From: Nitrospirota bacterium
GTDB taxonomy: Bacteria > Nitrospirota > UBA9217
DNA: 36,740 bases
Direction: 5' to 3'
NCBI GenBank assembly: GCA_035623825.1
Contig: DASPSR010000059.1
Span: 1-36,740 of the forward strand
Below are positions 8,717-22,637 of this stretch, in pieces. Within the stretch, counting starts at the first letter, position 1, and the number at the start of each line of letters is the position of its first letter. The notes under the pieces are model-generated. The model searched no databases, had not been told where the DNA came from, and saw only the letters and a program-made list of their open reading frames with translations. The translations under genes and the position numbers were made by a program.

Positions 8717-10095
8717 GCCGTTCTCCGTTTATCCACCACGTAAACGCTCTTCGCGATCGTCTTGGCGTAATCTTTGAGCTCTGCAGCAATCTCCGACGCC
8801 TCCAAAGGATTCGTCAATGCACGCTGCTCGTTCGTCACGATTGCTATAGAGATGGTCATGAGCGGATACGTCATCTCTTCGCCCTGCCTGTTTTTTCCAA
8901 AAATAAAACCATTTTTTCTGTCTTCCTCATCGTAGAAATAAGGGACGCGTTCATCGAATTGTTGTATGATTTCGGAACTGATCATTCGCATATACTCCGG
9001 AGTCGTGATCACCACGAAGTCATCGCCGCCCACATGCCCGATAAAATCTTCGGGCAAGCCCTTTGCTTTCGCAGCGACCTCTATGATTCTAGCTGTTTCT
9101 TTGATAACTTCGTTTCCATGCGCGTAGCCATAATGGTCATTGAATGCCTTAAAGTTATCAAGGTCGATCACGCAGAACGCAAATGGCTGTCTGGATTCAA
9201 ACCGTCGCTTAAGGGCATTTTCGATTGCGATGCCTCCGGGCAAACGCGTAAGTGGGCTGGCATCTAGATACATCTCTTCGAGCTTTGCAAGCCTTTTGCC
9301 CATGGCAAGAAACGCCGCCGACAGGTTTCCGATTTCGTCTTTCGTGTCTATCTGAGGATCATAATTAAAGTTTCCTTCAGCTATGTGGTTAGTAGCCTCC
9401 CTGAGCTTGTTGATAGATGAGGATATATGGCGCGTCACAACCAGGCCGGCCAAAACACCCAGGACTATGTCGAGAATGCACAGGACTGCTGTGGTGGTAA
9501 AAGCGGAGCTGCTGAGATGGCTCATGCTCTTCATCTTGCGGTTCTGAGACTGTTTTGCCCCGGCAGACATGGATCTAAGGTCGGACAGCAATTGTTCGAA
9601 GTTTTTCTTGAGCTCACCGTTTGAAATGACCGCCGCTTCGGCGATATTGCCTCTGGCGATCAACTTCATCTCCGTCGTGAAGATGTCGCTGTACTGCCTG
9701 TGGAGCTTCTCCAATTTCCCAAGCTGAAGATCTTCTTGACCCGGAAGCGACTTGAGATCGGTGATCATGGCATCCAATTCTTCCGATCGCTTCCAGAACA
9801 GATCGCGGATATCTTCTCTTCTGAGTATCAGGTACCGTTTCTCGTAGGTATCTTGGGCGAGAAGTGCATCAAGCATCTTGTCGGCGGACTCCTGAACCTG
9901 GACATCAATCTTTACCACGTCCCTGTTCATGCTGTTGAGCCGCTGAAGACTGATCAGAACATACACCACCACGACAATGGTGAACACCACGAGTATCGTG
10001 TATCCAAGGAGCATCTTGCTGGCTATGTTCAGCCTGGCAAAAATTCTGTGCGGAGTCAATGCATCCAGTATGACCTGCGGGAAAGAAGATTTCAT
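8713..10095 (-). CDS. Membrane-bound diguanylate cyclase (2 TM, helical periplasmic sensor, HAMP, GGDEF)
   Basis: Two hydrophobic helices, HAMP motif (DEIGNLSAAFLAM), DLDNFKAFNDHYG and GHVGGDDF. Confidence 0.9.
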   Translation of the reverse strand: MKSSFPQVILDALTPHRIFARLNIASKMLLGYTILVVFTIVVVVYVLISLQRLNSMNRDVVKIDVQVQESADKMLDALLAQDTYEKRYLILRREDIRDLFWKRSEELDAMITDLKSLPGQEDLQLGKLEKLHRQYSDIFTTEMKLIARGNIAEAAVISNGELKKNFEQLLSDLRSMSAGAKQSQNRKMKSMSHLSSSAFTTTAVLCILDIVLGVLAGLVVTRHISSSINKLREATNHIAEGNFNYDPQIDTKDEIGNLSAAFLAMGKRLAKLEEMYLDASPLTRLPGGIAIENALKRRFESRQPFAFCVIDLDNFKAFNDHYGYAHGNEVIKETARIIEVAAKAKGLPEDFIGHVGGDDFVVITTPEYMRMISSEIIQQFDERVPYFYDEEDRKNGFIFGKNRQGEEMTYPLMTISIAIVTNEQRALTNPLEASEIAAELKDYAKTIAKSVYVVDKRRTA

Positions 10096-10267
10096 AAGGA
10101 ATTCGAGAAGAACTGGACGTGTGAACCGTCACCGCCTGTCCACACACTATGATATTGTGACAATAGAGGCAGGCGTATGAACAATTTGATTGACAAAGGG
10201 TTTTCAAAAAGGCCGCTATATTCTCTCCGCTCGGCCCAAGGGGATCGACCTCAGAGACATTTGCTCA

Positions 10268-10296
10268 ATATTATCGAACAAATACGGCATTGTCAA
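10268..10296 (-). promoter_or_regulatory. Putative sigma70 promoter for the diguanylate cyclase operon
   Basis: Minus strand TTGACA, 17-nt spacer, TAATAT, about 170 nt upstream of the start. Confidence 0.5.
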
Positions 10297-10448
10297 ATGC
10301 ATTGTGGATAGGGTGCGGCGCACATCAGTAAACGATCAAGCGTCTCCCCCGACCCAATTCTATGCCAGTGAGGAGTTATCCAGGACTATATCAGAAAACG
10401 GACAAGATGTCCGTCAGCGCGATCATGAGACTCGAACATGGCGGGAAA

Positions 10449-11027
10449 TCATACGATGGCATCAAGGACGACAAAGAGGATATTCTCTCCAATCAGGACC
10501 ACAAGTGCCAGAATCATGAATACCTTGCACACCTTGTCTGGTGATACCCTGATGGCCGCAAGGAGACCGAAACTGGCCACGAACCAGAATATGGAGACCC
10601 ACATGAGGTTAAAGGGAGCCACCCAAAGAATGAGGGCAGAAATGAAGACACCGAGCACCAGGTACGGAACCCATACGGAAAGAAGCGGGGCCTTTCCGGA
10701 ATCCGCCGCTCGTCTTGCCCTGAGCGCAGTGATCAGGAACACCTGCCACCATGATCCGAGGAAAAAGAACATGACACCATAGCGGTCGAATCGATGAAGC
10801 ACCTGAACAAGGAGCGGAAACCGGTGATACTCGAGGCTGAAGATGGTAAAAAGGAAGACCGCCGGGATAAACCCTATGAACGCATAACCGCAGGCATCCA
10901 TCGTGACGGCCCTCGCCGATTCCCCACCTGTCTTTTTTCGTACAGTCCGTGCACATCGGAAAAACTCAACTCCGGTCAGCAGCGGTATAATCAAGTATGC
11001 GAGCTGTTGATACCGGTAGCCTTCCAT
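10449..11027 (-). CDS. Hypothetical polytopic membrane protein (about 6 TM)
   Basis: Successive hydrophobic segments. ATG at 11027 (MEGYRYQQ) follows GGGGAGAG; the track start at 11051 is the alternative. No family recognised. Confidence 0.7.
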   Translation of the reverse strand: MEGYRYQQLAYLIIPLLTGVEFFRCARTVRKKTGGESARAVTMDACGYAFIGFIPAVFLFTIFSLEYHRFPLLVQVLHRFDRYGVMFFFLGSWWQVFLITALRARRAADSGKAPLLSVWVPYLVLGVFISALILWVAPFNLMWVSIFWFVASFGLLAAIRVSPDKVCKVFMILALVVLIGENILFVVLDAIV

Positions 11028-11429
11028 AGTATTTTTCTCTCCCCGGAGCATCGGGCCGCAAAAAACCCGCAGTAATGTCTCCGTCCTCTGCTACCTCATG
11101 GAATCATACGCCGCTGATGCCTAGAAGCGACATCGTTCCACTCATTGACATCACCCTCGCATCCAAGCAGGCAAACAAAAGAGTCATCCGCGGGTTGTAC
11201 CGCGCGTGATGAAATTCTGAGATGCAGACTAACAAAGCAACAAGGTCTTGTCAACGTAAACTTACAATTTGAGGGGAGGAGTCCGGCTTTGGACAACAAT
11301 ACAATTGTCAATTCATCTACATTCACATCTTTCACGCGACGAATCATTGCCCAGCCTGCCTTCTTGGCCTTTTTTCTCCGTGTCGTGGATGCTCGTCGTC
11401 CTTGAGCCGTAGCCAGTTCAGCCCTATTC

Positions 11430-11438
11430 TGCTATAAT
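11430..11438 (+). promoter_or_regulatory. Extended -10 promoter element upstream of the giant ORF
   Basis: TG-C-TATAAT, with weak -35 TAGCCA 17 nt upstream of the hexamer; AAGGAG RBS before ATG 11518. Confidence 0.55.
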
Positions 11439-11517
11439 CTGTTCAGAACATTCTGACATAGACCTGCCCCTTCTCAACTTCAATCTTTCCACCGCGTCAT
11501 CTCCCAAAGGAGCGGCC

Positions 11518-14500
11518 ATGCACCAGTATAAATTCGATGTTATCATAATCGGAGCTGGCCCCGCCGGCGTGACCGCAGCAGGCGCACTTGCCGGGACGGA
11601 CTTATCCGTTGCCTTGCTCGAGGCCGGTGTTTACGCCGGGGCCGAGAACTGGTCCGGCTGTGTCTATTTTGCCGAAAGCCTCGCTGAGAAGGACTGTTTC
11701 GGACCCGAAGCCGTCGAATCGGCCCCGTTCGAGCGACGCGTGGTCAGGCGGGGCACGCTCATGCACAATGGTCTGGATGTGGTGGGCGTGGAGATTTCTG
11801 ATGCCCATACGTTCAAGAACTGCTATACGGTCCTCAGGCCGGTATACGACCCCTATTTCGCAAATCTTGCCAGTTCGAAGGGCGCCATTCATATCACCGG
11901 GACCACCATCACTTCGCTCATACGCAAAGACGGCAGGGTAATCGGGGTAGACACGAACCGCGGGCCGCTTTACGCAGACATGACCTTCATCGCTGAAGGT
12001 GACGCCTCTCACCTCGTCCGCTCCGAACGGCTCGAGCGCATCCCGGAGCCGCACTACCTCCAGGGCGTAAAGGCCGTGCTTTCGCTCAGGCCTGAAGAAA
12101 TAGAGAGAAGGTTCATGCTCAAGCCGGGCGAGGGTTCAGCGTACGAGTTGCTTATCCGGAACGCGTCTATTGCGGGCAGGACTGCAAAGCTGAACATCGG
12201 CGGCTTTCTCTATACGAACCGTGACAGCCTCTCCGTGGGCTACGTGGTCCCCCTCGAAAATGTGAGAAACAACTACCGCGGCAACCACGACGACCTCTTC
12301 GAGTGGATGAGGGGCCTCCCCTATATAAAGGAGCTGGCCGAAGGAGCAACGCTTTCGGCCTACGGCACGAAAATCATCAGGAGCGGCGGATGGAACGAGA
12401 GTCCGGTGCTCATCGAAGACGGACTTGCGGTCGGTGGCGCATCGGTCGGGCTTGGAGTGGATATCCCCTTCCCGAACTACACGGGCCCGGCGTCTGCGAC
12501 AGGGCTTTACTTCGCCCGGGCTGCACGAGCAATCCTCCTACACGGTCGTGCACCGGAAGCAAAAAATCTCGCGAAGGAATATCTCGCGCCGCTTTGCAAA
12601 AGCGTCTACGGCGAGAACGCAGAGTATCTGTCGGCATGGCCAAGCTACTTTAGCGAATCCAAGGCGCTTTTCGGCAGGACCGCGGACATGGCCTGCGGCG
12701 CTGTCCACTTTCTTGCAAGCGGGAGTGTCAGAAAGACCGGCAGGTTCCTGAGAAGTCATATTCTTTCGTTCCGCGGTCTCAAGGAATCGATTACGGACAC
12801 GATGAGAGCGATTGGAGCGCTCAAGCTGTGGAAGCCGCTCGTAACAGCGGCGATAAATCCGGTAACTATCTCGCACTGGGTACTGAATTTAATCAAGAAA
12901 GCCCCTGCCGACGAGACAAAACTCGGCGTAATTCTGCATATCGCCGGCAGGAATGTTGACGCCGCAGCGCTTCCCTGGCCCGTGGGCCGGCTGGTTAAAA
13001 GACTTTCTCCCGCACTCCGGCGAGCCCTCGAACAGGTCTACGCCAATAACGAGCAGTCGGTACAGAAAAAATTCGAAAACGCCCTACGTACCTTAGTGCG
13101 CGGCATGATGCTGACCGACCTCGTGATCGTTCCTGCTTTCGCCATTGAACTCTTCTTCATCGCCCTCGGCACGGCCATATGGGATGCCTATCGCTTCTAC
13201 GTACTCAAGACGCCGGTAGAGAAACTCCTTGCCGAGCCAGTGATGTCATACAATGAAGCGCAAAAACAAGCGCGGGACCTGGGCTCCGTCAAACCAACAA
13301 CCACCCTGGAGGGCAAGCTCGCCTCGAACACCTATAGGGTCGGAACGACATCGCACATAAGAACGCTCTGGCCCGAATCCATCGCGGCCCATCCCGACAT
13401 GGCGCGGGCCGGCCTCTGGTGGGTCTGCCCGGCGAGAGTGTACGTTTATGACGCGCCGGTCCTCGGCCGCGGCAGAGTGACTATAAACTTTGAGAACTGC
13501 ATAAAGTGCGAATCCTGCTGGAGGGCAGAGCCGTTGCGCGTGATGTGGGGCAGGCATACGGACCACAAGCTCATCTATCGGCCGGAAAGCGCGGCGATTA
13601 ACCACCTTCTTGAATCGCTGCAAGCCGTACCGGTTTTCGAAACGCAGGCAGTAAAGCTCCCTGGGACTGTCGACGGGGATCTCTCCCGCCTGAGCGCTGA
13701 CATCGTGGAAGCCTGCCGCACTGCGCTGCAGGCATCGGCTGCCTTCAGAGACTCGATAGCGAAACTTCCGGCGTCTGCTGATGCGGGAAGAAGGGAATGG
13801 CCGCTCAGGCTCGGCCAAAGGCTTGGAGACAAGCTTGCCAAGCTCGAGACCGCCCTCTTCAGCACCGGGGCAAATGGACCTGCCCAGCAGATTCAATCTG
13901 CCGGAAAGGATATCGCGATAAGGATCGCGGAAGGTGGATTCTACCATGCACTCTACTGCGCGCGAAGGCTTGAACAGCAGCTCAAAGCATGGCTACGCGG
14001 ATATGGCGAAGGAGGAAGCTCGATCCCTGCTTGTCCAGGAACAGGTATTAGCGGCTATCTTTCATACGAAGCGGTTGCAAAGGTATTCCCCGATAGTGTC
14101 GTGAAGCAGTGGGAGGAGAAGCCCATGTCCGAAGACTGGGCTGAAACGCTCCGGCAGTTCATTGTCGAACATCGAGATGCCGCTCAAGGGACATTGCGTG
14201 CCCTTTCGTCTGTAAGTCCGGCGCTCGGCTTAATCGCAGCACATCAGTTCTCTGCGATCAGTGCGATGGCGAGATCAGGGGTCACCCCGAAACCCGGCGT
14301 CTGCGCCGTCAACTCAGACCGTCTCGAAGTCCAGGAGAGCATCGACAGCACCCGGATAAAGGGCGTTCTCACTTTTGTCCCCTGCGCCGCGATCCATGCG
14401 CTTCTCGTCATCTCACGCGGCAAGGGACATATCGTGCCGCTTGAAGCGCCAGGCGTGCTCGTAACTCCGACGCCCTCGATAGGGTTTAGGGCTGCGGGGC

Positions 14501-17500
14501 TTTGTGACATAGCGCTTGATTGCACGGTGAAGAAGCAGGCGATCATCGCACGAGAGGGGGAAGGCGTACCGGATTCGGCTTCCTATCTCGCAATAGCGCT
14601 CGGCGCGGGAGACTACCTCTGCAGGAGAATAAAGGAACACGCCGCTGGCCGGTTACAGTTCCCCGGCCAGATGCTGGACACCGAGGGTCGTGACGGAATT
14701 GCGAAGCTCGGCGCGGTCAAAGGCATGATCGCCCGCACCGAAGCGTGGCGGCTCTTGCTCGAAACGCTGTACTGCGCAATCGAAAATCACGGTGGCTGTC
14801 CCGATTTCGATACGCTCTGCCTGCTCTGCGCAACCGTGTCATCCGTTGCATTCAGTCCTGAGCCCCACGCCATGGGATACGACGCAGGCCAGGTCTTCGG
14901 CGGGTTCGTCTATTCCGAGGATGATCTTCTTTCGCGATTTTACCGCGACAGTTCTCTGTTCAGGTTCCTGTCTCCCGGACTTAATGCTTCCTCGAGATTA
15001 TACGCAGCGCTCGGATCAGATGAGCTCGATCGTATGATTCCCTCTCTTGGCAGTCTGGACATTATTCGAGGAGAACCACTAGGGCCGCTTGCGTCACGTT
15101 TGACGGCAATAACAAGGCAGTGCATGTCGATCTCGGATCATGCCGACTTAGCCCTCAGCGGAGAGTCCAAGGCCATCGTTCTCGCCATTCGCGGACTGCT
15201 CGTTTCGATCGAAGACGGACTGAAGGAGGGCAGAAGCATGGAGGCCGCGGCCGCGGCGGCCGATGTCCTGCTGGACCTGGCAGAAGAAGCCATAGCGAAG
15301 GCCGAAATCTCATCGGGCCGCGGCAGCGTGTCGCCGTCAGCCGTTTTCCCCATCGAGCCCGCGGGCAACCGGATGGCCCTTGATGAGAATTATGAAACCT
15401 TCTGCACCGCGCCGGGTGCGCCTCACAGGTCCGGAAGCTTCCTCACGACCGTTTTCGACCGTTCGCCGCGATTCGTGCCCGAGATCCAGCTCCACGACAC
15501 AAGGCTCAGAACTAGGTGGAGCGAGCTCGCCGGATGGTTCAAGGAGAACTGCCGCGACAAAAAATTCGATGACCTTGGTATCGAACGCTACATCGAGAAG
15601 ATTCACCGTCTGCCCGACGATATCCTGAATACGGTGAAAGAGAGCAAGTGGCTCGCGACCTATATCCCGGAATCGCTTGACGGACTCGGCTGGCGTAAAG
15701 CAGAGTACTACATTTTGAACGCCGCGGCCGGGAGTTTCGGTGACGCGGCTATCGACCTCTTGATCATGGCAAGTACCAGCATCGGCACCACTCCGATCCT
15801 GCTTGGTCTCCAGGACGAGCTCCCGCGAGTGCGGGAAGAGCTTGTCCCGCTTGTTCGCGAAGCATCAAAGCTTGGTGAAATCGGCGCACGCATCGATAAG
15901 ATCATCCAATCCTTTGCCAATCCCGACCCGGCCTGGATCAGGAAAGAATACGAGGCAGTGACAAGGCTTGTCGACGAGCGTATCCGCCGAACACGCGTAG
16001 TCAAATACCTTGCCGCAAACTTCCTTCGGGCTTTCTTCGGCGCCGGCATCGCCGGCAAACGCGGAGCATTTGGAGACTTCATGGCGAACCTCAAGCACGC
16101 CGGAAAGCTCTTTGCGAAGCTCACGCCCGACGTACGCGCAGCGCTCGACGAGCTACCGCGACGAGAACGGTGCCACAGGCTCTTCCTTCGCTACCTTGGC
16201 CACAACGCGGTGAGTGCTTTTGCTTTGACCGAACCGACAGCTGGCTCTGACTCGGGTGGCGTCAAGACAACGGCAAAGTTACTGAGTGCAAGACTCACCC
16301 CTCTCGACGACGGCAGATACTCATTCAATCTTCCTGAGGGCGATGGATCGGGCGTGCGGTATCTGATCGATGCGGACAGGATCACTTTCACTGATCTCGG
16401 TGTTGCCTATCAAACGACCGACGGTCAGTCGGCAGTGATCAGGTATGACAAATATGATTATGCGGCTGACCAGGGGGTGCGCTATTACACGCACAACGGC
16501 AGGGAGTGTATATTCCATGACATTGGCCAGGTTCGGCAATCTGACGCCGGACCTCTCTACGAGTACTACAGCCTGACCGGCGCCAAGATGTGGATCACGA
16601 ACGGAAGCATCGCGACCCAATTCTGTCTGTACGCCCAGACGCCGGAAGGCGTCACCGGTTTCATGGTCGATCGACATGCCGAGGGGCTCAAGGTCGGCGC
16701 CGATGAGAAGAAAACCGGCCAGCGCGGATCTCCTACGAACGAGATATCGATCGACGCCGTGCGTGTCCCGCGCGAGGCCGTGATTGGTTACGAGGGCCAT
16801 GGTCAGGTGAACGCTCTTGAAACCTTGAACGTCGGCCGATGCGGTCTTGCCGTCGTCTCCAGCGCTCTCATGCGCAAGCTCTTGCATGAGGCAGCCGCGG
16901 GCGTTCCTCCCTCTCCCGAGCGAGACGACCTTCTCGGCGAGGCCGCGGCGGTTCTCTTTGGCAGCGAATCCCTTGCCTATTACCTCGTAGGGCTCTTCGA
17001 CCGCACGCACGAATCAGTCCGCATGGAGTCAGCGATTGCCAAATACATCTGCTCCGAGGACATCCATGAGCTTATCACGCTCGTTGAACGTGCCTACGGT
17101 CCCCCAGGCCAGACTGAAAAGTTCCTCCTCGAGAAGGCGAGGCGCGACAGCCGCATCCTTACGATTTATGAAGGAACGAACGAAGTCCAACGGTTCCTCA
17201 TCTTGAAAGATTTGATAGCCAAAGCTGCTGACTGGCCAGAGCTTTCGGGCATGCATCACGATCCAGCGTCACAGGCGCTTGTGGAATGGAAGGACAGGCT
17301 ACGGACGCGCGTCAAGGATGCCGCTTCCCTGCTGGGCGACACGTGCTGGTCCGATGCCATGCTCCAACCCGCAATGTTCCTGCTTGCGGAAATGGCCGGC
17401 GAGATCCTAAGGCTTGAATGCGTCTTGTACCGACTGGAATGGATCACTACGCGAAGTTCGATGCTTGCTCAGAGTTCACCGGACTATTCCCCTCTGATGC

Positions 17501-19446
17501 TCTCTGCAGCCAAGCGCTCAGCTGAGCGCACCATCTCCAGGATCGCGCATCTTGACCGCTCATATGTATCATCATGGGAACGGATCAGAAATAATAGAAG
17601 CACCTTCGACGTTCTGGCTGCAGATGCTGCTCTCGACAGGATGACGGAAACACCTGTACCGACGGGGGAAATGGCGGGAATATTAAACACACCGATCCGC
17701 ATCCTTTCGATCGTCCGGCCCGTGGCCGACCTCTCTCCGCGTCCGAGGATTATTGATGGCGTTCTCAGCGAGCTCGTCTGGCGGCTTGACCCGTCTGACC
17801 TCGCCGGTCTCACGCGGGCATTGGCGCTTAAGGCAGCCAATAATGCCCAAGTCAGCGTCGATGTACTAATGCCCGGAGCGGCCAAGCATGAGTCGCTCCT
17901 CAGAATGGCTGCTGGTGTTCGCGCCAACAACCTGTACCGGCTGCCTATTGATCCTTTCGAAGGACCCGAAGTTTACGGACCGAGTATAAGGGATCTTGAG
18001 ATCCTGCAGCAGTATGATTGCATCATAACCGGCGCCGTTTGTTTGAACGGTGACCAGAGCCTCGGAGCCTATCTTGCCGGCAGTTTGAGGCGGCTCCACT
18101 ATCTGCAAGAACATATCATAACCAGACCGGACGGCGCCGGGTTGCGCAATGTGGCCTTGCCTGCGGTGGTCAGTGTCGCTGCTGCCGCTGCGGAGCCGAT
18201 TTTGAGCATGACCGAGGCTGTGGGTTCCACCTTCTCCCACATACGGGTAATGGAACCTGCCTACAAACCGGTTGCTCCGCCCTCTCGCTTCGAACTGCCT
18301 ACAGGGACTGAGGATGTCACGCGGACGGTCACCAACGCCGCTCAAGCTGCAGAATTTCTCAAAGCCTATGCGGCATCAGCAAGCGCAGCCGCTGTGGCGC
18401 AGGAATACAAGGGAGAACTCGTGCCGGGGGCCCTGTCATCCGGTAGCGCGGTCTGGGCAGTACTTGAACCGCAGGAGCTGAAGTCAAACCTGGCCGTTCT
18501 CCGCGCCTCAAAGCTCGCGGCGGACCTGACCAACAGGAAGGCGAATGCTGTAATCCCGGCGCCCCGAAAGACGTGGTCCATGCTTCTGGGGCTCGCTCAG
18601 GCACAGGGCAGCGAGCAGGCGTTCTGCATCGATACGCAGAACGGCAGGCTTTCGGACGATGGAAAGCACGAGTTAATCCGCACAGTGATGAAGGCATCGC
18701 ATTCAGCTGTCATCTTCGCGGGGACGGAGTGGTCAAAAGGTTTCGCCTACGCAGCGGGGGAATCAGATGCCACTGGCGCAAGACATCTGCTCTGCTCTGG
18801 AGCGATATCCGTGACAAAGAACACGGGTGGCTCGCTTGCTTTTTCGCTGCCGGCGTATGAGGGCAAGCTTGTGCGGCAACGCGTGCTGGACGGTGGATAC
18901 GGCTTCATCACCGTGGCCCCTGAGGCGGACTTTCCGGCGGCGACCGCAAGAAACGTCTTCATTGCGACGATGCTTGATTTCGCGATCAAAAAAGATTGGA
19001 TCATGCCTCTGCCGCCAATTGCGGCGCCGACGCTTCCACAAGCCGACGTGATCATCGATCTCGGTTACGGCATCAAGGACCGTTTGGGACTCGAGCTCGC
19101 GCAGGAACTTAAAAGAAAGCTGGAGGCACGCGGGCTCGCGCCGCTATTCGGCGCAACGCGCAAGGTGACCCAGGACCTGAAGCTCCTGCCGATCGAGATG
19201 CAGATAGGCCAGACCGGTGTCAGGGTAAATCCGAGGCTTATCATAGCACTCGGCATTTCCGGGGCTCCACAGCACATCGACTACATCGGCACGCGAGCCG
19301 AGATCCTCTGCTTCAACAAGGACACCGAAGCGCCGCTCATGAATTTGAACCAGACCCGCCTCGCGCCGCGAGTACACCCCATCGCGGGAGACCTGTTCGT
19401 GACCGTAAGAGAGCTCATCAGCAATCTTTCGCCGGCTGTGAGATAA
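11518..19446 (+). CDS. 2642-aa multidomain flavoprotein: FixC-like oxidoreductase, FixX-like ferredoxin, degenerate ACAD, ACAD, ETF-beta and ETF-alpha
   Basis: FixC-like: DVIIIGAGPAG, SAPFERRV, YTVLRPVYD, GGFLYTNRDSLSVG. FixX-like: CPARVY and CIKCESC. ACAD-1: RLQF, QVFGGFVY, RFYRD. ACAD-2: AFALTEPTAGSD, GAKMWITNG, GQRGSPT, RILTIYEGTNEVQR. ETF-beta-like: ILSIVRPVAD, LPAVVSV. ETF-alpha: GATR, QIGQTG, GISGAPQH, NKDTEAP, GDL. Confidence 0.9.
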   Translation: MHQYKFDVIIIGAGPAGVTAAGALAGTDLSVALLEAGVYAGAENWSGCVYFAESLAEKDCFGPEAVESAPFERRVVRRGTLMHNGLDVVGVEISDAHTFKNCYTVLRPVYDPYFANLASSKGAIHITGTTITSLIRKDGRVIGVDTNRGPLYADMTFIAEGDASHLVRSERLERIPEPHYLQGVKAVLSLRPEEIERRFMLKPGEGSAYELLIRNASIAGRTAKLNIGGFLYTNRDSLSVGYVVPLENVRNNYRGNHDDLFEWMRGLPYIKELAEGATLSAYGTKIIRSGGWNESPVLIEDGLAVGGASVGLGVDIPFPNYTGPASATGLYFARAARAILLHGRAPEAKNLAKEYLAPLCKSVYGENAEYLSAWPSYFSESKALFGRTADMACGAVHFLASGSVRKTGRFLRSHILSFRGLKESITDTMRAIGALKLWKPLVTAAINPVTISHWVLNLIKKAPADETKLGVILHIAGRNVDAAALPWPVGRLVKRLSPALRRALEQVYANNEQSVQKKFENALRTLVRGMMLTDLVIVPAFAIELFFIALGTAIWDAYRFYVLKTPVEKLLAEPVMSYNEAQKQARDLGSVKPTTTLEGKLASNTYRVGTTSHIRTLWPESIAAHPDMARAGLWWVCPARVYVYDAPVLGRGRVTINFENCIKCESCWRAEPLRVMWGRHTDHKLIYRPESAAINHLLESLQAVPVFETQAVKLPGTVDGDLSRLSADIVEACRTALQASAAFRDSIAKLPASADAGRREWPLRLGQRLGDKLAKLETALFSTGANGPAQQIQSAGKDIAIRIAEGGFYHALYCARRLEQQLKAWLRGYGEGGSSIPACPGTGISGYLSYEAVAKVFPDSVVKQWEEKPMSEDWAETLRQFIVEHRDAAQGTLRALSSVSPALGLIAAHQFSAISAMARSGVTPKPGVCAVNSDRLEVQESIDSTRIKGVLTFVPCAAIHALLVISRGKGHIVPLEAPGVLVTPTPSIGFRAAGLCDIALDCTVKKQAIIAREGEGVPDSASYLAIALGAGDYLCRRIKEHAAGRLQFPGQMLDTEGRDGIAKLGAVKGMIARTEAWRLLLETLYCAIENHGGCPDFDTLCLLCATVSSVAFSPEPHAMGYDAGQVFGGFVYSEDDLLSRFYRDSSLFRFLSPGLNASSRLYAALGSDELDRMIPSLGSLDIIRGEPLGPLASRLTAITRQCMSISDHADLALSGESKAIVLAIRGLLVSIEDGLKEGRSMEAAAAAADVLLDLAEEAIAKAEISSGRGSVSPSAVFPIEPAGNRMALDENYETFCTAPGAPHRSGSFLTTVFDRSPRFVPEIQLHDTRLRTRWSELAGWFKENCRDKKFDDLGIERYIEKIHRLPDDILNTVKESKWLATYIPESLDGLGWRKAEYYILNAAAGSFGDAAIDLLIMASTSIGTTPILLGLQDELPRVREELVPLVREASKLGEIGARIDKIIQSFANPDPAWIRKEYEAVTRLVDERIRRTRVVKYLAANFLRAFFGAGIAGKRGAFGDFMANLKHAGKLFAKLTPDVRAALDELPRRERCHRLFLRYLGHNAVSAFALTEPTAGSDSGGVKTTAKLLSARLTPLDDGRYSFNLPEGDGSGVRYLIDADRITFTDLGVAYQTTDGQSAVIRYDKYDYAADQGVRYYTHNGRECIFHDIGQVRQSDAGPLYEYYSLTGAKMWITNGSIATQFCLYAQTPEGVTGFMVDRHAEGLKVGADEKKTGQRGSPTNEISIDAVRVPREAVIGYEGHGQVNALETLNVGRCGLAVVSSALMRKLLHEAAAGVPPSPERDDLLGEAAAVLFGSESLAYYLVGLFDRTHESVRMESAIAKYICSEDIHELITLVERAYGPPGQTEKFLLEKARRDSRILTIYEGTNEVQRFLILKDLIAKAADWPELSGMHHDPASQALVEWKDRLRTRVKDAASLLGDTCWSDAMLQPAMFLLAEMAGEILRLECVLYRLEWITTRSSMLAQSSPDYSPLMLSAAKRSAERTISRIAHLDRSYVSSWERIRNNRSTFDVLAADAALDRMTETPVPTGEMAGILNTPIRILSIVRPVADLSPRPRIIDGVLSELVWRLDPSDLAGLTRALALKAANNAQVSVDVLMPGAAKHESLLRMAAGVRANNLYRLPIDPFEGPEVYGPSIRDLEILQQYDCIITGAVCLNGDQSLGAYLAGSLRRLHYLQEHIITRPDGAGLRNVALPAVVSVAAAAAEPILSMTEAVGSTFSHIRVMEPAYKPVAPPSRFELPTGTEDVTRTVTNAAQAAEFLKAYAASASAAAVAQEYKGELVPGALSSGSAVWAVLEPQELKSNLAVLRASKLAADLTNRKANAVIPAPRKTWSMLLGLAQAQGSEQAFCIDTQNGRLSDDGKHELIRTVMKASHSAVIFAGTEWSKGFAYAAGESDATGARHLLCSGAISVTKNTGGSLAFSLPAYEGKLVRQRVLDGGYGFITVAPEADFPAATARNVFIATMLDFAIKKDWIMPLPPIAAPTLPQADVIIDLGYGIKDRLGLELAQELKRKLEARGLAPLFGATRKVTQDLKLLPIEMQIGQTGVRVNPRLIIALGISGAPQHIDYIGTRAEILCFNKDTEAPLMNLNQTRLAPRVHPIAGDLFVTVRELISNLSPAVR

Positions 19447-19683
19447 GATATGCTCCAGATGAGAGATGGCGTGCTCAAGAATTCATTATGGATCACTTGG
19501 GCGCTTTCACCACTGCACGCCCGCTCTCCATGAAACAAAAAAATGTTAACATGTTCACAAAGGATAATGTTACCGCGTGCATCGATCTGACATAAATATT
19601 TGCAAGGGAAGTCAGGCGATTGAACAGTAGAGGCAATGCTGGGGCTATGGAATCAGCACGAAATATCGATTGAATGGAGACGG

Positions 19684-19860
19684 TTACGCCCGGTTGCAGG
19701 AACGGCGCGAAATCTTTTCCCACATCTCCTCGTTCATCTCATCTATGTAGTCCTTCACCGAAAAATCTTTGCCGCACGCCGTGCAGCGTAACGTCACCGT
19801 GCGTCAGCCGATTCGCAGCTCGACTTTCTTGCCGCATATCTTGCATTTCATCTTTTGCAT
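19684..19860 (-). CDS. Small dual-CxxC putative selenoprotein (in-frame TGA read as Sec19), 58 aa
   Basis: MQKMKCKICGKKVELRIG-TGA-RTVTLRCTACGKDFSVKDYIDEMNEEMWEKISRRSCNRA-TAA, with the TGA at 19806-19804 between two CxxC motifs. Not in the ORF track. The frame is also open up to GTG 19950, so the start is uncertain. Confidence 0.8.
19773..19803 (-). promoter_or_regulatory. Candidate bacterial SECIS stem-loop directly after the in-frame TGA
   Basis: CGCACG-GTG-ACGTTACGCTG-CAC-GG-CGTGCG: a perfect 6-bp outer stem plus an inner GTG/CAC helix. Confidence 0.5.
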
Positions 19861-19946
19861 AGGGCATGGAACAGAGGGTCGGGGCCCCCGGAGGAGTACT
19901 GATGAAAATCGATCAAGGCACCCTGACGTCTCGTCTGTGAGATGTA

Positions 19947-21719
19947 TCACTCCACAATATCCAGCTTGATCGACAACTCTCGGAGTTGCGCCAGGGTAAC
20001 GCGCGACGGGGCCTCGGTCATCAGGCAGACGGCTTTCTGCGTCTTCGGGAAAGCGATGACGTCGCGAATGGACTGAGCACCCGTCAGGATTGCCGTTAGC
20101 CGATCGAGTCCAAAGGCCAGCCCACCGTGCGGAGGTGCGCCAAACTCAAGCGCCTCGAGCAGGAACCCGAATTTCTTCCGCGCTTCCTCTTCGGCTATGT
20201 TCAGCAGGCCGAACATCTTGGACTGTATATCGGAACGGTGGATACGGATGCTTCCGCCGCCGATCTCCGAGCCATTCAACACGATATCATAGGCCCTGGC
20301 TCTGACTTTGAGGGGCTCCGTTTCCATGAATTGAAGGTCTTCTTCCTTGGGTGCGGTAAACGGATGGTGCATTGCGTCGTAACGCTTCTCATCGGGATTC
20401 CACTCCACGAGCGGGAAATCGGTGACCCAGAGAAAATTGAATTTACTTTCGTCAATGAGGTTCAGCTGCCTGGCAATGAGCAATCGCATGTAGCCGAGCG
20501 TTTCAGCGACGATCCTGGCGCTGTCAGCGATGAAAATCATAAGATCTCCCGGCTTTGCGCCGAGGCGCTCGGCAATAGTCTTGAGCTGGCCGTCCTTGAA
20601 GAACTTGGCGATTGGGGATTCGAAACCGGCGTCAGTGACCTTTATCCAAGCTAGGCCCTTTGCGCCGAAGACCTTTGCCTCGCTGGTGAGGCCATCCACA
20701 TCCTTGCGCGACAGGCGGGCCATGCCCGGCGCAGCGAAGCCCTTGACCTGGCCACCGAGTTCAACAGTCTGGAGGAAGACCTTGAAGTCCGATGCCTTCG
20801 CGATATCCGAGATGTCCTTAAGCTCAAGCCCGAAGCGCGTGTCCGGCTTGTCGGACCCGTACCGCTCCATAACGTCCTGATACGAATACCGAGGGAAAGG
20901 GAGGCTGAGATCTATCCCCTTGACTTCTTTCACGATGGCGGCGAGGAGCCGCTCCATAAGCGAGATGACGTCATCTTCTTCCACGAAGGACATCTCAAGG
21001 TCTATTTGGGTGAACTCAGGCTGGCGGTCGGCGCGAAGGTCTTCATCACGGAAACATTTGACGATCTGGTAATAGCGCTCGAACCCGGCAACCATGAGGA
21101 TCTGCTTAAAGAGCTGGGGCGATTGCGGGAGCGCGAAGAATAGGCCTGGATTCACCCTGCTCGGAACCAGATAGTCTCGCGCCCCTTCTGGCGTACTTTT
21201 GGTAAGGAAAGGGGTTTCCACATCGATGAAACCGTGGCTGTCGAGAAACCGCCGTACGGTCTGCGTAATCTTGTGACGAGTAATGAGGGTCTTTTGGAGA
21301 CTCGGGCGGCGCAGGTCCAGATACCGGTACTTGAGCCGCAAGTTCTCGGCCACGTCCGTCTCGTCCTCAATCATGAACGGCGGCGTCTTGGACTGGTTCA
21401 GGATCTCAAGGGCATTCACGAGAACTTCTATCTCTCCTGTGGGAAGATTGGGATTCACCGTATTGCCCGGTCGAGGGGCAACCTTTCCAGTGACCGCCAG
21501 CACGAACTCGCTCCGGATCTCACGCGCCTGCTTGTGTGCATCGGCTGACGATTCGGGATTAAAGACCACCTGCGTGATGCCGTCGCGGTCCCGAAGGTCG
21601 ACGAAAATGAGTCCACCGTGGTCTCTTCTCGTGTGCGCCCATCCCATTAAGGTCACGGTCGTGCCCACGTCCTTCTTAGTCAATGCACCGCACGTATGCG
21701 ACTTTTTGATTGGTCTCAC
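19947..21719 (-). CDS. aspS: Aspartate--tRNA ligase
   Basis: RRDHGGLIFVDLRD, LKYRYLDLRRP, STPEGARDYLVPSR, FRDEDLRADRQPEFTQID and GAPPHGGLAFGLDR. Confidence 0.98.
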   Translation of the reverse strand: MRPIKKSHTCGALTKKDVGTTVTLMGWAHTRRDHGGLIFVDLRDRDGITQVVFNPESSADAHKQAREIRSEFVLAVTGKVAPRPGNTVNPNLPTGEIEVLVNALEILNQSKTPPFMIEDETDVAENLRLKYRYLDLRRPSLQKTLITRHKITQTVRRFLDSHGFIDVETPFLTKSTPEGARDYLVPSRVNPGLFFALPQSPQLFKQILMVAGFERYYQIVKCFRDEDLRADRQPEFTQIDLEMSFVEEDDVISLMERLLAAIVKEVKGIDLSLPFPRYSYQDVMERYGSDKPDTRFGLELKDISDIAKASDFKVFLQTVELGGQVKGFAAPGMARLSRKDVDGLTSEAKVFGAKGLAWIKVTDAGFESPIAKFFKDGQLKTIAERLGAKPGDLMIFIADSARIVAETLGYMRLLIARQLNLIDESKFNFLWVTDFPLVEWNPDEKRYDAMHHPFTAPKEEDLQFMETEPLKVRARAYDIVLNGSEIGGGSIRIHRSDIQSKMFGLLNIAEEEARKKFGFLLEALEFGAPPHGGLAFGLDRLTAILTGAQSIRDVIAFPKTQKAVCLMTEAPSRVTLAQLRELSIKLDIVE

Positions 21720-21791: not shown

Positions 21792-22198
21792 GCGGCGGAT
21801 AAAATTTTGGCTAGAGTTTTATGATGAATACAGCCTCCTTTCCCGGGCTCGAAGAAGAATTCGACGACTTAACCAGCGCCGTAAAACTCGCTTCACGTCG
21901 AAAAATTACGGCTGCTTCATATAGGATGAATAATTCGCATCATCATTTCGATATGATCTCATAGGCGCGTCAGGTGGGAGCACAGACGAGGAGTAGGCAA
22001 AAGCGAAGATAAAAGTGAACCACAATAAAGGTGAAAATTTCGTTGCAGGATAGTCAAACGTCTTACCGTCTCTTCGGCGAGATGAAAGAAAGGCCACACG
22101 AAAGATATTTTAAGTCCGATCAGGAGGACCGTCCGGCGGAAAAATAAGGCGGTGCACATCCACAGCCCTTTCGGTTGCATCGGCCAGGAAAAACCGCC

Positions 22199-22372: not shown

Positions 22373-22411
22373 TATTTGTCACCCCCGTATCAAAATCAAG
22401 AAAACCCGTGC

Positions 22412-22439
22412 ATTTTAACCATAAATATGAAAATGTCAA
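22412..22439 (-). promoter_or_regulatory. Putative sigma70 promoter of the 57-aa ORF
   Basis: TTGACA, 16-nt spacer, TAAAAT. Confidence 0.55.
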
Positions 22440-22607: not shown

Positions 22608-22637
22608 ATCCCTTGAATTTCAGGGGGATTCAGTTTC

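What the first reader, a model, noticed from the sequence alone, without database searches (positions are those of the whole stretch)
11518..19446. A whole acyl-CoA to ETF to quinone electron chain fused into one 2642-aa polypeptide
Seen: one uninterrupted frame carries a FixC-like FAD oxidoreductase (about 11518-12830), a FixX-like ferredoxin (about 13306-13590), a degenerate ACAD (about 14070-15010), a second ACAD with a C-terminal helical extension (about 15480-17640), ETF-beta (about 17695-18370) and ETF-alpha (about 18445-19430). Established: FixABCX/EtfABCX, Bcd-EtfAB and CarCDE are multi-subunit complexes encoded by separate genes. Inference: this could be a self-contained acyl-CoA:menaquinone oxidoreductase (or the reverse reductase) with a tethered ETF shuttle. 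I know partial fusions, but not a characterised protein with all six modules.
Basis: partly seen in the sequence, partly recalled or inferred. Interest (0 to 1): 0.93.

Follow-up and report, generated by a model that had tools for sequence, protein, structure and literature searches.

The report
Single-chain acyl-CoA-to-quinone electron chain
One real, conserved 2642-residue bacterial gene joins an acyl-CoA dehydrogenase, its electron-transfer flavoprotein and the quinone reductase that normally work as separate proteins, giving a natural one-piece model of the route from fat oxidation to the respiratory chain.

Summary
Window 11518-19446 (+) is one open frame of 2642 aa (287 kDa). It is not an assembly artefact. 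Contigs of four runs cover it without indels or joints. 215 proteins of at least 2400 aa from Nitrospirota, Acidobacteriota, Planctomycetota and Verrucomicrobiae share the motif order.

The most likely function is a self-contained, non-bifurcating acyl-CoA:(mena)quinone oxidoreductase. The ACAD catalytic Glu, the ET-FAD site and the four cluster cysteines are conserved. The two hallmarks of the second nucleotide site of ETFs (AMP or bifurcating FAD) are not. The dead ACAD keeps the motifs that, as I recall them, bind the partner subunit's FAD, and the live ACAD has lost them, which suggests an intramolecular one-FAD pseudo-dimer.

The genome makes menaquinone by the futalosine route. No other FixC/ETF-QO homologue was found in it. 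The gene co-occurs with a FadB-like gene in its family.

Nine full-text searches found no paper on this architecture. The function is inferred, not shown. I rate it a new variant of a known kind.

The parts
11410..11438 (+). sigma-70-like promoter match (TAGCCA-17-TATAAT with TG) about 80 bp upstream of the start codon
   Evidence: 10 of 12 hexamer positions match. This is a consensus match only; 6 sites were found in the region against 3.7 +/- 2.0 in shuffles.
11518..19446 (+). whole ORF, 2642 aa, 287.3 kDa, stop codon included
   Evidence: M1 is invariant in 17 of 17 aligned homologues.
11518..12897 (+). FixC/EtfC-like FAD quinone-reductase module (residues 1-460), with GxGxxG at residues 12-17
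   Evidence: PRK10015 E 4e-43, FixC PRK10157 E 2e-35, both below the curated cut-offs; 7koe_C E 1e-26. AF2 pLDDT about 80-90; best Foldseek hit 7koe_C at E 1e-21, TM (target) 0.77; second hit ETF-QO 2gmh.
13117..13203 (+). conserved hydrophobic helix (residues 534-562) in a helical insert between the FixC and FixX parts; candidate membrane anchor
   Evidence: family-mean Kyte-Doolittle hydropathy of 2.11 over residues 536-554, the only such peak outside Rossmann and core segments; modelled as helix 534-562 at pLDDT of about 90. Its topology is unexplained.
13306..13590 (+). FixX/ETF-QO-like [4Fe-4S] module (residues 597-691); ligands C637, C661, C664 and C667 (codons 13426-13428 and 13498-13518)
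   Evidence: the four Cys are invariant; the CP...CxxCxxC pattern occurs in 215 of 215 full-length members. ETF-QO 2gmh E 8e-4, EtfX 7koe_D E 3e-3. Fer4_ETF_QO 21.5 bits, below the cut-off of 24. The AF2 model is poor here, pLDDT 30-40.
13591..14064 (+). helical linker (residues 692-849) with no family match
   Evidence: no Pfam hit; helices at 727-827.
14065..15012 (+). pseudo-ACAD (residues 850-1165): ACAD fold without a catalytic Glu; keeps the R-x-Q-F-x-G and G-Q-x-F-G-G motifs
   Evidence: profile against ACAD 4m9a, E 0.0033; alpha (850-919), beta (928-1005), alpha (1020-1165) at pLDDT of about 90. FYRDSxxFRFL stands in place of YRDxRIxxIYEGT in 20 of 20 sequences. Against: hhalign against the second ACAD gives probability 0.11.
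15082..15318 (+). helical extension after the pseudo-ACAD (residues 1189-1267)
   Evidence: helices 345-423 of the model.
15481..17232 (+). catalytic ACAD (residues 1322-1905) with an enlarged N-terminal helical domain and an insert of about 95 residues in the beta domain; catalytic Glu E1885 (codon 17170-17172)
   Evidence: Acyl-CoA_dh_M 59.9 bits and _C 62.2 bits, both above cut-off.: _N 24.7 bits when scanned alone; the _M match is split, 1-20 and 27-97. CarC E 2e-43, VLCAD E 5e-43. YEG[TAS]N[ED] in 215 of 215, TEPxxGSD in 212 of 215, MW[IV][TS]N in 212 of 215.
17263..17634 (+). C-terminal helical extension of the ACAD (residues 1916-2039), VLCAD-like
   Evidence: helices 1072-1195 of the model; the best Foldseek hits are VLCAD 7s7g, 2uxw, 3b96 and 8ca1, then ACAD9.
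17689..18372 (+). EtfB-like module (residues 2058-2285); its 'zipper' loop (residues 2173-2182, window 18034-18063) is degenerate
   Evidence: EtfB 4kpu_B E 3e-15. PF01012 27.4 bits. Searches cover the zipper.
18445..19443 (+). EtfA-like module (residues 2310-2642). Domain I is weakly conserved, with Leu at the Arg-165 column (L2444, codon 18847-18849). Domain II (residues 2501-2642) carries an intact ET-FAD site (R2548, QIGQTG, SGAPQH).
   Evidence: PF00766 63.1 bits. CarE E 9e-24, human ETF-alpha E 2e-22..

Best explanation
The gene encodes a single-polypeptide, membrane-associated, non-bifurcating acyl-CoA:(mena)quinone oxidoreductase. It is the whole route from beta-oxidation into the respiratory chain in one chain.

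Inferred path: an acyl-CoA is oxidised at the FAD of the catalytic ACAD (base E1885). That FAD site is completed by the neighbouring dead ACAD fold, so the two folds make an intramolecular one-FAD pseudo-dimer. Single electrons pass to the FAD of the EtfA domain II, the tethered swinging domain, then to one [4Fe-4S] cluster in the FixX/ETF-QO-like part, then to the FixC FAD, and finally to menaquinone in the membrane. The EtfB-like domain and EtfA domain I serve only as a scaffold, because their AMP / bifurcating-FAD site has decayed.

Shown: the ORF, its modules, their conservation, and which motifs are kept or lost.

Inferred: the cofactor content (expected 3 FAD plus one 4Fe-4S, no AMP), the direction of electron flow, the substrate, the quinone, the pseudo-dimer and the membrane anchoring.
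For: (1) All modules are present and colinear. Two AF2 models support this (pTM 0.74 and 0.73), with Foldseek best hits VLCAD and EtfC 7koe_C.

(2) Among 215 family proteins of at least 2400 aa:
- ACAD catalytic motif, 215 of 215;
- TEPxxGSD, 212 of 215;
- CP...CxxCxxC, 215 of 215;
- SGAxQH of the ET-FAD site, 212 of 215;
- Q[IV]GQTG, 185 of 215.
R2548, the ET-FAD arginine, is present in 20 of 20 aligned sequences.

(3) The second nucleotide site is not kept. The EtfB 'zipper' is DGDTAQ in 216 bifurcating ETFs and DDD[S]NQ in 449 canonical ETFs. EtfA Arg-165 is kept in 447 of 449 canonical ETFs (PMC8958531, passages read). Here the loop reads LNGDQS and is one residue shorter. The Arg column, located through 'tRPaFGGN' in five solved EtfA chains, holds Leu. 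Family-wide, Arg stands there in 8 of 215 sequences, and the zipper loop is deleted in 42 of 215.

(4) Complementary decay. The pseudo-ACAD keeps R-x-Q-F-x-G and G-Q-x-F-G-G (GQxFGG in 205 of 215). The catalytic ACAD has lost both, as its alignment to CarC shows. In ACAD dimers these motifs contact the partner subunit's FAD; that point is recalled from MCAD structures and comes from no call.

(5) Genome context:
- FadB-like gene and thiolase on contig C37;
- two MqnA/MqnD-family genes, one of them in the window;
- no other FixC or ETF-QO homologue in this 89.65%-complete genome.

(6) Co-occurrence in family f1, 64 genomes including G000:
- both genes present, 40;
- neither present, 15;
- giant gene only, 5, all in genomes 74-89% complete;
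- FadB-like only, 4.
In family f5, 5 of 5 genomes tested have a FadB-like gene.

A paper reports that beta-oxidation genes are patchy among Nitrospira strains (PMC5596200, passage read).
Against: - There is no biochemical or expression evidence; no RNA run was listed.
- The pseudo-ACAD assignment rests on a weak profile hit (E 0.0033) and an AF2 model. hhalign against the catalytic ACAD gives probability 0.11, and Pfam gives only 13.8 bits.
- The FixX region is modelled at pLDDT 30-40, so flavin-cluster distances are unknown.
- With menaquinone (E0' -74 mV, abstract of PMC10734219) and an acyl-CoA/enoyl-CoA couple near -10 mV (recalled), the forward reaction is uphill under standard conditions.
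- The gene does not lie beside beta-oxidation genes. No neighbour is shared by all 10 loci compared, and the two neighbour clusters found in 3 loci each do not include the window.
- The genome also has a conventional ACAD plus EtfB/EtfA.
- Co-occurrence counts come from related genomes and are not independent.
- The uniformly hydrophobic helix at 534-562 would, as a true transmembrane helix, put FixC and FixX on opposite sides of the membrane.
Confidence: 0.6

Rival explanations
1. The electron path is the same, but the substrate is not an ordinary fatty acyl-CoA. The one-site pseudo-dimer, the enlarged N-terminal domain and the insert in the beta domain could serve a bulky or unusual thioester, such as a branched, isoprenoid-derived or very-long-chain acyl-CoA, or an amino-acid-derived CoA ester.
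For: The ACAD has an insert of about 95 residues that splits the middle-domain match and an N-terminal helical domain of about 240 residues. Only one of the two ACAD folds has a catalytic Glu. The genome also has a conventional ACAD with EtfB/EtfA that could handle ordinary substrates. One-FAD heteromeric ACADs of mycobacteria act on steroid side chains; this is recalled and comes from no call.
Against: The best solved relatives are VLCAD, ACAD9, CarC and FadE-type enzymes. The gene co-occurs with a FadB-like gene. Nothing in the sequence points to a particular substrate.
Confidence: 0.2
2. The enzyme runs in reverse as a menaquinol:enoyl-CoA reductase. It would act as an electron sink, or as a reductive step in lipid metabolism, driven by a reduced menaquinone pool.
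For: The genome has futalosine-route genes for the low-potential quinone menaquinone. With menaquinol as donor, enoyl-CoA reduction would be slightly downhill (E0' -74 mV from the abstract of PMC10734219; about -10 mV for the CoA couple is recalled). The conventional ACAD/EtfB set lies beside plsX and fabH.
Against: The gene co-occurs with a FadB-like catabolic gene. The other named hosts are Acidobacteriota, Planctomycetota and Verrucomicrobiae. No reductase-specific feature was found.
Confidence: 0.1
3. It is a flavin-based bifurcating or confurcating enzyme, a fused hybrid of Bcd-EtfAB and FixABCX. It would link NADH, ferredoxin, acyl-CoA and quinone, and supply reduced ferredoxin to the reverse TCA cycle of aerobic autotrophs.
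For: The best solved relatives of the EtfB, EtfA and FixC parts belong to bifurcating complexes: 4kpu_B, CarE 6fah_A and 7koe_C. Within the phylum sample the gene was found only in families f1 and f5. ETF-based ferredoxin reduction has been proposed for Nitrospina (PMC3578206, passage read). Some distant members keep a D-T-G-Q zipper.
Against: The zipper motif is not met in the window protein. The Arg-165 equivalent is Leu here, and is Arg in only 8 of 215 members. No NAD(H)-binding or extra ferredoxin domain was detected. The same architecture occurs in Acidobacteriota, Planctomycetota and Verrucomicrobiae.
Confidence: 0.05
4. It is an artefact: a chimeric assembly or a read-through of separate genes.
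For: The window comes from a metagenome-assembled genome. One relative appears split (G099).
Against: Contigs of four runs cover the stretch without indels or joints, and pieces from runs other than the possible source bridge the junctions. 106 of the 120 listed hits and 105 of the 108 new proteins have at least 2400 aa. 25 of the first 25 places listed span the query from residue 1-5 to residue 2296-2640. The G099 'split' is a run of N in a scaffold.
Confidence: 0.01

Closest known systems
Canonical ACAD -> ETF -> ETF:quinone oxidoreductase chain (mitochondria and many bacteria)
   Same: The same three functions and cofactor types. The ETF-QO-like half has one FAD and one [4Fe-4S] bound by a CP...CxxCxxC pattern; the alignment to pig ETF-QO 2gmh is and the Foldseek hit. 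The ET-FAD site of EtfA is intact.
   Different: Here everything lies in one 2642-aa chain. The FixC and FeS parts are separated by a helical insert of about 140 residues that contains a hydrophobic helix. The AMP site of the ETF is not conserved. The ACAD is a heterologous pseudo-dimer rather than a homotetramer or homodimer (inferred).
EtfABCX / FixABCX (Thermotoga maritima 7koe; Azotobacter vinelandii)
   Same: EtfC is the best solved relative of the N-terminal module by sequence and by fold. EtfX, EtfA and EtfB are all hit by the family profiles. Menaquinone is the acceptor in T. maritima (abstract of PMC10734219).
   Different: EtfABCX consists of four subunits. It has two [4Fe-4S] clusters in EtfX and a bifurcating FAD fed by NADH (PMC10734219, passages read). 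Here only four Cys, enough for one cluster, are conserved. The hallmarks of the bifurcating site are missing, and an ACAD pair is inserted.
Bcd-EtfAB and CarCDE (caffeyl-CoA reductase-Etf) complexes
   Same: CarC is the best solved relative of the catalytic ACAD at E 2e-43, and CarE of the EtfA part at E 9e-24. An ACAD docks directly on an ETF.
   Different: Those are soluble, multi-subunit, bifurcating enzymes that use NADH and ferredoxin. They have no quinone-reductase module.
Fused EtfB-EtfA of Sulfolobus acidocaldarius (SaETF; PMC12042025)
   Same: A single polypeptide with EtfB followed by EtfA, the same order as here (passages read).
   Different: SaETF is about 600 aa, holds two FADs and is described as bifurcating. 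Its ACAD and FixCX/ETF-QO partners are separate genes in the neighbourhood.
VLCAD / ACAD9 / bacterial FadE-type long ACADs
   Same: The best fold and sequence relatives of the catalytic ACAD with its C-terminal helical extension.
   Different: Those are homodimers in which both subunits are active. Here the partner fold is a dead ACAD in the same chain (inferred).
Heteromeric one-FAD ACADs of mycobacteria, and the Fusobacterium ACAD fused to EtfA domain II
   Same: An active ACAD subunit paired with an inactive one (recalled). A partial fusion of an ACAD with EtfA domain II; I saw this only as a sentence and reference 74 in PMC12042025 and did not read the paper itself.
   Different: Neither carries a complete ETF or a quinone-reductase module. 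I made no sequence comparison with either.

Membership tests
FixC/EtfC - ETF-QO flavoprotein family | N-terminal FAD Rossmann fold with GxGxxG | tested here: met
   G12, G14 and G17 are invariant. GxGxxG lies in the first 60 residues in 206 of 215 members.
FixC/EtfC - ETF-QO flavoprotein family | Overall fold and sequence likeness to solved EtfC / ETF-QO | tested here: met
   7koe_C scores E 1e-26 over residues 4-310. Foldseek ranks 7koe_C first (TM target 0.77, rmsd 3.4, 413 columns), with 2gmh second and third.
FixC/EtfC - ETF-QO flavoprotein family | Score above NCBIfam's curated cut-off for FixC (PRK10157) or PRK10015 | tested here: not met
   147.6 bits against a cut-off of 466, and 122.1 bits against 610. 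The match covers only 312 of about 429 profile positions.
FixC/EtfC - ETF-QO flavoprotein family | Quinone-binding pocket and quinone reduction | not testable with these tools
   No model coordinates or ligand docking were available.
FixX/EtfX ferredoxin-like subunit | Two [4Fe-4S] clusters (eight Cys ligands), as in T. maritima EtfX | tested here: not met
   Only C637, C661, C664 and C667 are conserved. The EtfX distal-cluster Cys region aligns to 'aalWWvCP'. The two-cluster content of EtfX is taken from PMC10734219.
ETF-QO 4Fe-4S domain (PF05187) | CP(A/G)xVY ... NCxxCxxC pattern and a Pfam match | tested here: inconclusive
   The pattern is present in 215 of 215 members and aligns to 2gmh at E 8e-4. 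The Pfam score is 21.5 bits, below the cut-off of 24.
Acyl-CoA dehydrogenase (catalytic module, residues 1322-1905) | Pfam middle and C-terminal domains above cut-off; catalytic Glu in YEGT; FAD motifs TEPxxGSD and WITN | tested here: met
   59.9 bits against a cut-off of 33.3, and 62.2 bits against 22.4. E1885 is present in 20 of 20 sequences. Motif counts are 215, 212 and 212 of 215.
Acyl-CoA dehydrogenase (pseudo-ACAD, residues 850-1165) | ACAD fold | tested here: inconclusive
   The profile hits 4m9a at E 0.0033. The AF2 secondary-structure order is alpha/beta/alpha at pLDDT of about 90. Against: Pfam gives 13.8 bits and hhalign against ACAD2 gives probability 0.11. The domain was not folded or searched on its own.
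Acyl-CoA dehydrogenase (pseudo-ACAD, residues 850-1165) | Catalytic Glu and its own FAD motifs | tested here: not met
   FYRDSxxFRFL replaces the YEGT stretch in 20 of 20 sequences. The regex search of nine members located TEPxxGSD and MWITN only in the second ACAD (first matches at residues 1409-1847).
ETF alpha subunit | PF00766 above cut-off; ET-FAD residues (Arg of GAxR, QxGQTG, SGAxQH) | tested here: met
   63.1 bits against a cut-off of 27. R2548 is present in 20 of 20 sequences. SGAxQH is in 212 of 215 and Q[IV]GQTG in 185 of 215.
ETF beta subunit | PF01012 match and likeness to solved EtfB | tested here: met
   27.4 bits against a cut-off of 26.7 when the segment is scanned alone; 24.9 bits within the whole protein. 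The profile hits 4kpu_B at E 3e-15, and ten EtfB-type chain sequences at E <= 1e-7.
ETF (any kind): nucleotide site between domains I and III | EtfB 'zipper' hexapeptide (D-G-D-T-A-Q or D-D-D-x-N-Q) and EtfA Arg-165 | tested here: not met
   The definition comes from PMC8958531. The window protein has LNGDQS with a one-residue deletion, and Leu at the Arg column. Arg stands there in 8 of 215 members, and the loop is deleted in 42 of 215.
Bifurcating ETF (FixAB/EtfAB group 2) | Second (bifurcating) FAD and an NADH site | tested here: not met
   Same evidence as the row above. No further nucleotide-binding domain was found by Pfam. Actual cofactor content cannot be tested here.

The most novel reading that the evidence does not exclude
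This family is a natural single-chain beta-oxidation 'metabolon'. It would be a monomeric enzyme of about 290 kDa in which a one-FAD ACAD pseudo-dimer, an ETF that has dispensed with AMP, and a one-cluster ETF-QO are wired together. EtfA domain II would swing between donor and acceptor inside one polypeptide. No other ETF:quinone module was found in the genome, so the enzyme may also be the entry port for the cell's free EtfAB. In Nitrospira-type and Leptospirillum-type chemolithoautotrophs it would be the step that commits lipid-derived electrons to the menaquinone pool, and so a marker of hidden mixotrophy.
Probability: 0.4. Interest if true: 0.75.

Novelty: new variant of a known kind. Interest (0 to 1): 0.66.

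Why it matters
Each module and the overall electron route are textbook. What is new is a conserved protein that carries donor dehydrogenase, shuttle and quinone reductase in one chain.

If the inferred function holds, three things follow:
- The family gives structural biology a stoichiometric, self-assembling object in which the ETF shuttle could be seen in both its donor and its acceptor poses.
- It shows that the AMP or second-FAD site, otherwise nearly universal in ETFs, can be dispensed with once the subunits are covalently joined.
- It gives a simple genomic marker for fatty-acid catabolism in Nitrospirota that are usually treated as strict chemolithoautotrophs.

The family is also a compact candidate part for engineering acyl-CoA-to-quinone electron flow.

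Tried and rejected
Expression. The look-up of sequencing runs listed 13 runs holding the stretch or part of it, none on record as RNA ('no RNA holder listed'). Expression is therefore untested.

Split forms. A search for shorter proteins matching residues 700-1300 gave 37 hits. By the source names marked 'partial' and the short contigs they come from, they look mostly like fragments at contig ends, and no populated free-standing family appeared. The apparent split in G099 is a run of N. G239 has two adjacent ORFs with an in-frame TAG, in a genome with 7% contamination; I did not pursue it.

Internal duplication. hhalign of the pseudo-ACAD profile against the catalytic ACAD profile gave probability 0.11. 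I therefore do not claim a recent duplication.

Conserved neighbours. No neighbour cluster is shared by all 10 loci compared. Two clusters occur in 3 loci each, and neither includes the window. A fixed partner gene is rejected.

Genome-contig scan. The scan was swamped by ordinary ACADs because one pattern was G[AS]KMWITN. It gave only one full-length relative (L004). L012, L033 and L050 matched across several separate ORFs. I looked at ORF sizes for L012 and L050 and did not scan them.

In-frame TGA. I considered selenocysteine for the single TGA reported inside some matches. I dropped it because the open frames are longer than the matches, so the TGA is most simply the relative's own stop near the C-terminus. 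I did not check this codon by codon.

Literature. Nine full-text searches found no paper describing this fusion. Garcia Costas et al. 2017 could not be read.

Full report
OBSERVATION

The window has one ORF at 11518..19446 on the + strand, with an ATG start and 2642 codons. The next longest of the 41 ORFs of at least 150 aa has 877 aa. The translation has no internal stop. The predicted mass is 287.3 kDa.

Whole-protein scans support these parts:
- an N-terminal FixC-like flavoprotein: NCBIfam PRK10015 over residues 1-318 at E 4e-43, and FixC PRK10157 at E 2e-35, both far below the curated cut-offs;
- an ACAD: Acyl-CoA_dh_M 59.9 bits and Acyl-CoA_dh_1 62.2 bits, both above cut-off;
- an ETF-alpha FAD domain: PF00766, 63.1 bits.

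Weaker matches are Fer4_ETF_QO at residues 636-668 and ETF (PF01012) at 2087-2191. Scanned piece by piece, PF01012 reaches 27.4 bits (cut-off 26.7), Acyl-CoA_dh_N reaches 24.7 bits (cut-off 22.9), and Fer4_ETF_QO reaches 21.5 bits (cut-off 24).

THE FRAME IS REAL

The window comes from a peat-metagenome genome bin. Logan contigs of four runs cover all 30 bins of 11000-19900 with no indel and no joint. One run may be the source of the window, so it is not independent. Pieces from other runs bridge every module junction: X4 at 12683-14993, 15046-16813 and 17809-19303, and X6 at 17372-18709.

Homologues give independent support. A search restricted to proteins of 1453-4624 aa found 468 hits at E <= 0.001. 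Of the 120 listed, 106 have at least 2400 aa, and they align over the whole query down to 33% identity. A second search, from a distant member, added 108 proteins, of which 105 have at least 2400 aa. Source names for these include Acidobacteriota, Planctomycetes/Gemmataceae and Verrucomicrobiae; about 48 of them form a shorter variant of 2400-2600 aa. Nine members taken from these groups all show the same order of landmark motifs.

In a sample of 301 genomes of the window's phylum, 52 have a match at E <= 1e-50. These are 44 of 63 genomes in the window's own family (f1), 7 of 7 in one other family (f5), and G000 itself. None of the remaining 230 genomes, in the other families, has a match. Source names for close relatives read Nitrospirota, Nitrospiria and Leptospirillia.

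WEAKLY SUPPORTED MODULES

I built sub-alignments from 17 genomic homologues (29-81% identity to the window protein, depending on the segment) and searched them against the sequences of solved structures.

The FixX-like piece hits pig ETF-QO (2gmh, E 8e-4) and T. maritima EtfX (7koe_D, E 3e-3). The CPAxVY and NCxxCxxC stretches line up. Only four Cys are conserved: C637, C661, C664 and C667. The pattern occurs in 215 of 215 full-length members. T. maritima EtfX holds two clusters (PMC10734219, passages read). This module is therefore a one-cluster domain, like ETF-QO.

The EtfB-like piece hits ten EtfB-type chain sequences at E <= 1e-7, the best being 4kpu_B at 3e-15. The EtfA-like piece hits CarE at 9e-24 and human ETF-alpha at 2e-22.

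The stretch 700-1300 hits ACADs only weakly. 4m9a scores E 0.0033, aligned over the end of the beta domain and the C-terminal domain.

An AF2 model of residues 845-2040 has mean pLDDT 77.6 and pTM 0.74. It shows two successive alpha/beta/alpha units. The first is compact and confident, with pLDDT of about 90. The second has an enlarged helical N-domain and a disordered insert in its beta domain. Each is followed by a helical extension. The best Foldseek hits are VLCAD, ACAD9 and bacterial long ACADs.

A profile-profile comparison of the two ACAD units gave probability 0.11. The first unit is thus an ACAD by fold and by a marginal profile hit, not by clear sequence homology to the second.

An AF2 model of residues 1-850 has pLDDT 74.7 and pTM 0.73. 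Its best Foldseek hits are EtfC 7koe_C (TM 0.77 on the target, rmsd 3.4 over 413 columns) and then ETF-QO. The FixX part is modelled poorly, at pLDDT 30-40, so no distances can be read.

WHAT IS KEPT AND WHAT IS LOST

Kept:
- The catalytic ACAD keeps IYEGTNEVQRF, with E1885, in 20 of 20 diverse members and in 215 of 215 full-length ones.
- TEPxxGSD and MW[IV][TS]N are each present in 212 of 215.
- The EtfA domain II keeps the ET-FAD arginine (R2548, 20 of 20), Q[IV]GQTG (185 of 215) and SGAxQH (212 of 215).

Lost:
- The first ACAD unit has FYRDSxxFRFL where the catalytic Glu stretch should be (20 of 20).
- The nucleotide site at the EtfA-domain-I/EtfB interface is not kept. [quoted passage not shown] A paper defines two hallmarks. 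One is an EtfB 'zipper': D-G-D-T-A-Q in 216 bifurcating ETFs and D-D-D-x-N-Q in 449 canonical ETFs. The other is EtfA Arg-165, kept in 447 of 449 canonical ETFs as well (PMC8958531, passages read).
- In the window protein the zipper reads L-N-G-D-Q-S and is one residue shorter.
- The Arg column was located through the 'tRPaFGGN' stretch of five solved EtfA chains. It holds Leu in the window protein.
- Across 215 members, Arg stands there in 8 and Lys in 9, and the zipper loop is deleted outright in 42.
- Some distant members keep D-T-G-Q, which hints at a bifurcating-type ancestor.

From this I infer a one-FAD ETF module whose base is only a scaffold. Covalent linkage would replace AMP's assembly role.

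A second pattern concerns the ACAD pair. The dead ACAD keeps R-x-Q-F-x-G (R1045, Q1047, F1048) and G-Q-x-F-G-G (Q1125, G1128, G1129), aligned to the same motifs of 4m9a (GQxFGG in 205 of 215). The live ACAD has lost both, as its alignment to CarC shows. In ACAD dimers these motifs reach across to the FAD of the partner subunit. That statement is recalled from MCAD structures and comes from no call. Complementary decay of this kind is what an obligate one-FAD heterodimer would show.

CONTEXT

The neighbours are housekeeping genes: LeuRS, Der, an RRM protein, a GGDEF protein, AspRS, DsbD, MoaD-MoaE and an M48 peptidase. No neighbour cluster is shared by all 10 loci compared, and the two clusters found in 3 loci each do not include the window. 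The gene stands alone, with a promoter-like site 80 bp upstream (a consensus match only).

Elsewhere the genome, which is 89.65% complete, has:
- a FadB-like 728-aa frame next to a thiolase;
- a conventional ACAD and EtfB at the start of contig C7, beside fabH and plsX, with an EtfA at the end of C27;
- two MqnA/MqnD-family genes, one of them in the window at 27004-27846;
- no other FixC or ETF-QO homologue.

In family f1 (64 genomes including G000), the giant gene and the FadB-like gene are both present in 40 genomes and both missing in 15. Five genomes have only the giant gene, and all five are 74-89% complete. Four have only the FadB-like gene. In family f5, 5 of 5 genomes tested have a FadB-like gene. 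These genomes are related to one another, so the counts overstate independence. The pattern does agree with a report that beta-oxidation genes are patchy among Nitrospira strains (PMC5596200, passage read).

MECHANISM AND RIVALS

The best-supported reading is a self-contained, non-bifurcating acyl-CoA:(mena)quinone oxidoreductase (confidence 0.6).

A variant with an unusual substrate gets 0.2, on the strength of the enlarged, one-site ACAD.

The reverse reaction gets 0.1. It cannot be excluded because menaquinone is a low-potential quinone.

A bifurcating role in ferredoxin supply gets 0.05. It is attractive because within the phylum sample the gene was found only in families f1 and f5, and because ETF-based ferredoxin reduction was once proposed for Nitrospina (PMC3578206). 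It is disfavoured by the missing bifurcating-site hallmarks and by the presence of the family in Acidobacteriota, Planctomycetota and Verrucomicrobiae.

One point stays unexplained. The helix at 534-562, between the FixC and FixX parts, is uniformly hydrophobic and conserved. It looks like a membrane anchor. As a true transmembrane helix, however, it would separate two modules that must touch.

COMPARISON AND NOVELTY

The closest known systems are:
- the three-protein ACAD/ETF/ETF-QO chain;
- EtfABCX/FixABCX;
- Bcd-EtfAB and CarCDE;
- the fused EtfB-EtfA of Sulfolobus (PMC12042025);
- VLCAD-type ACADs.

A Fusobacterium ACAD fused to EtfA domain II is known to me only from one sentence and a reference entry.

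Nine full-text searches found no description of the six-module protein. Supplements and subscription journals were not searchable. Database entries carry only automatic names ('acyl-CoA dehydrogenase family protein', 'ETF-quinone oxidoreductase', 'FAD-binding protein').

I rate it a new variant of a known kind, with interest 0.66. The parts and the route are familiar. The complete fusion, the AMP-less ETF base and the likely one-FAD ACAD pseudo-dimer are not, and the protein would be an unusually convenient object for seeing an ETF work between its two partners.

Noticed in passing
window 27004-27846 (-); also G000:C1:15484-16248: Two MqnA/MqnD-family (PF02621) genes, E 7e-77 and 9e-70. They indicate the futalosine route to menaquinone. 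One lies 7.5 kb downstream of the giant gene.
   Followed up: partly
window 13117-13203 (residues 534-562): A conserved, uniformly hydrophobic helix between the FixC-like and FixX-like parts, flanked by conserved D534, D556 and R559. As a true transmembrane helix it would place the two redox partners on opposite sides of the membrane, so its topology is unexplained.
   Followed up: partly
G000:C7:1-4915 and the end of G000:C27 (loci L107, L108, L113, L114): A conventional ACAD and EtfB lie directly beside fabH (ACP_syn_III) and plsX (FA_synthesis), which are fatty-acid synthesis genes. The EtfA sits at the end of another contig and probably continues the cluster. This is an odd neighbourhood for a catabolic ACAD/ETF set.
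   Followed up: partly
family-wide (proteins P0001-P0235): 42 of 215 full-length members lack the EtfB 'zipper' loop altogether. About 48 members form a shorter variant of 2400-2600 aa, with Verrucomicrobiae among the source names, and keep the same motif order. Some distant members keep a bifurcating-like D-T-G-Q.
   Followed up: partly
window 23855-24529 (-): One ORF of 224 aa carries both a ThiS/MoaD domain and a MoaE domain, a fusion of the small and large subunits of molybdopterin synthase.
   Followed up: no
window 7931-8716 (-) and 10449-11051 (-): Two ORFs of 261 and 200 aa have no Pfam match above threshold. Both are kept in the same position upstream of the giant gene in the closest relative (L004), but not in more distant loci.
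   Followed up: partly
window 12001-20000 against 8001-12000: The giant gene has G+C of 0.57-0.58, against 0.50-0.52 just upstream and 0.48 at 22001-24000. Other parts of the window also reach 0.58, so this is not clearly foreign DNA.
   Followed up: no
L012 5387-13509 and L050 (loci from other phyla): In a Balneolaceae-type genome the query matched across separate neighbouring ORFs of 304, 257, 324, 441, 393 and 405 aa. This looks like an unfused cluster of the same modules. I looked at ORF sizes only.
   Followed up: no
L118 (G099:C15) 3787-3796: The apparent two-gene version of the protein in this relative is caused by a run of N in the scaffold, not by a real split.
   Followed up: yes
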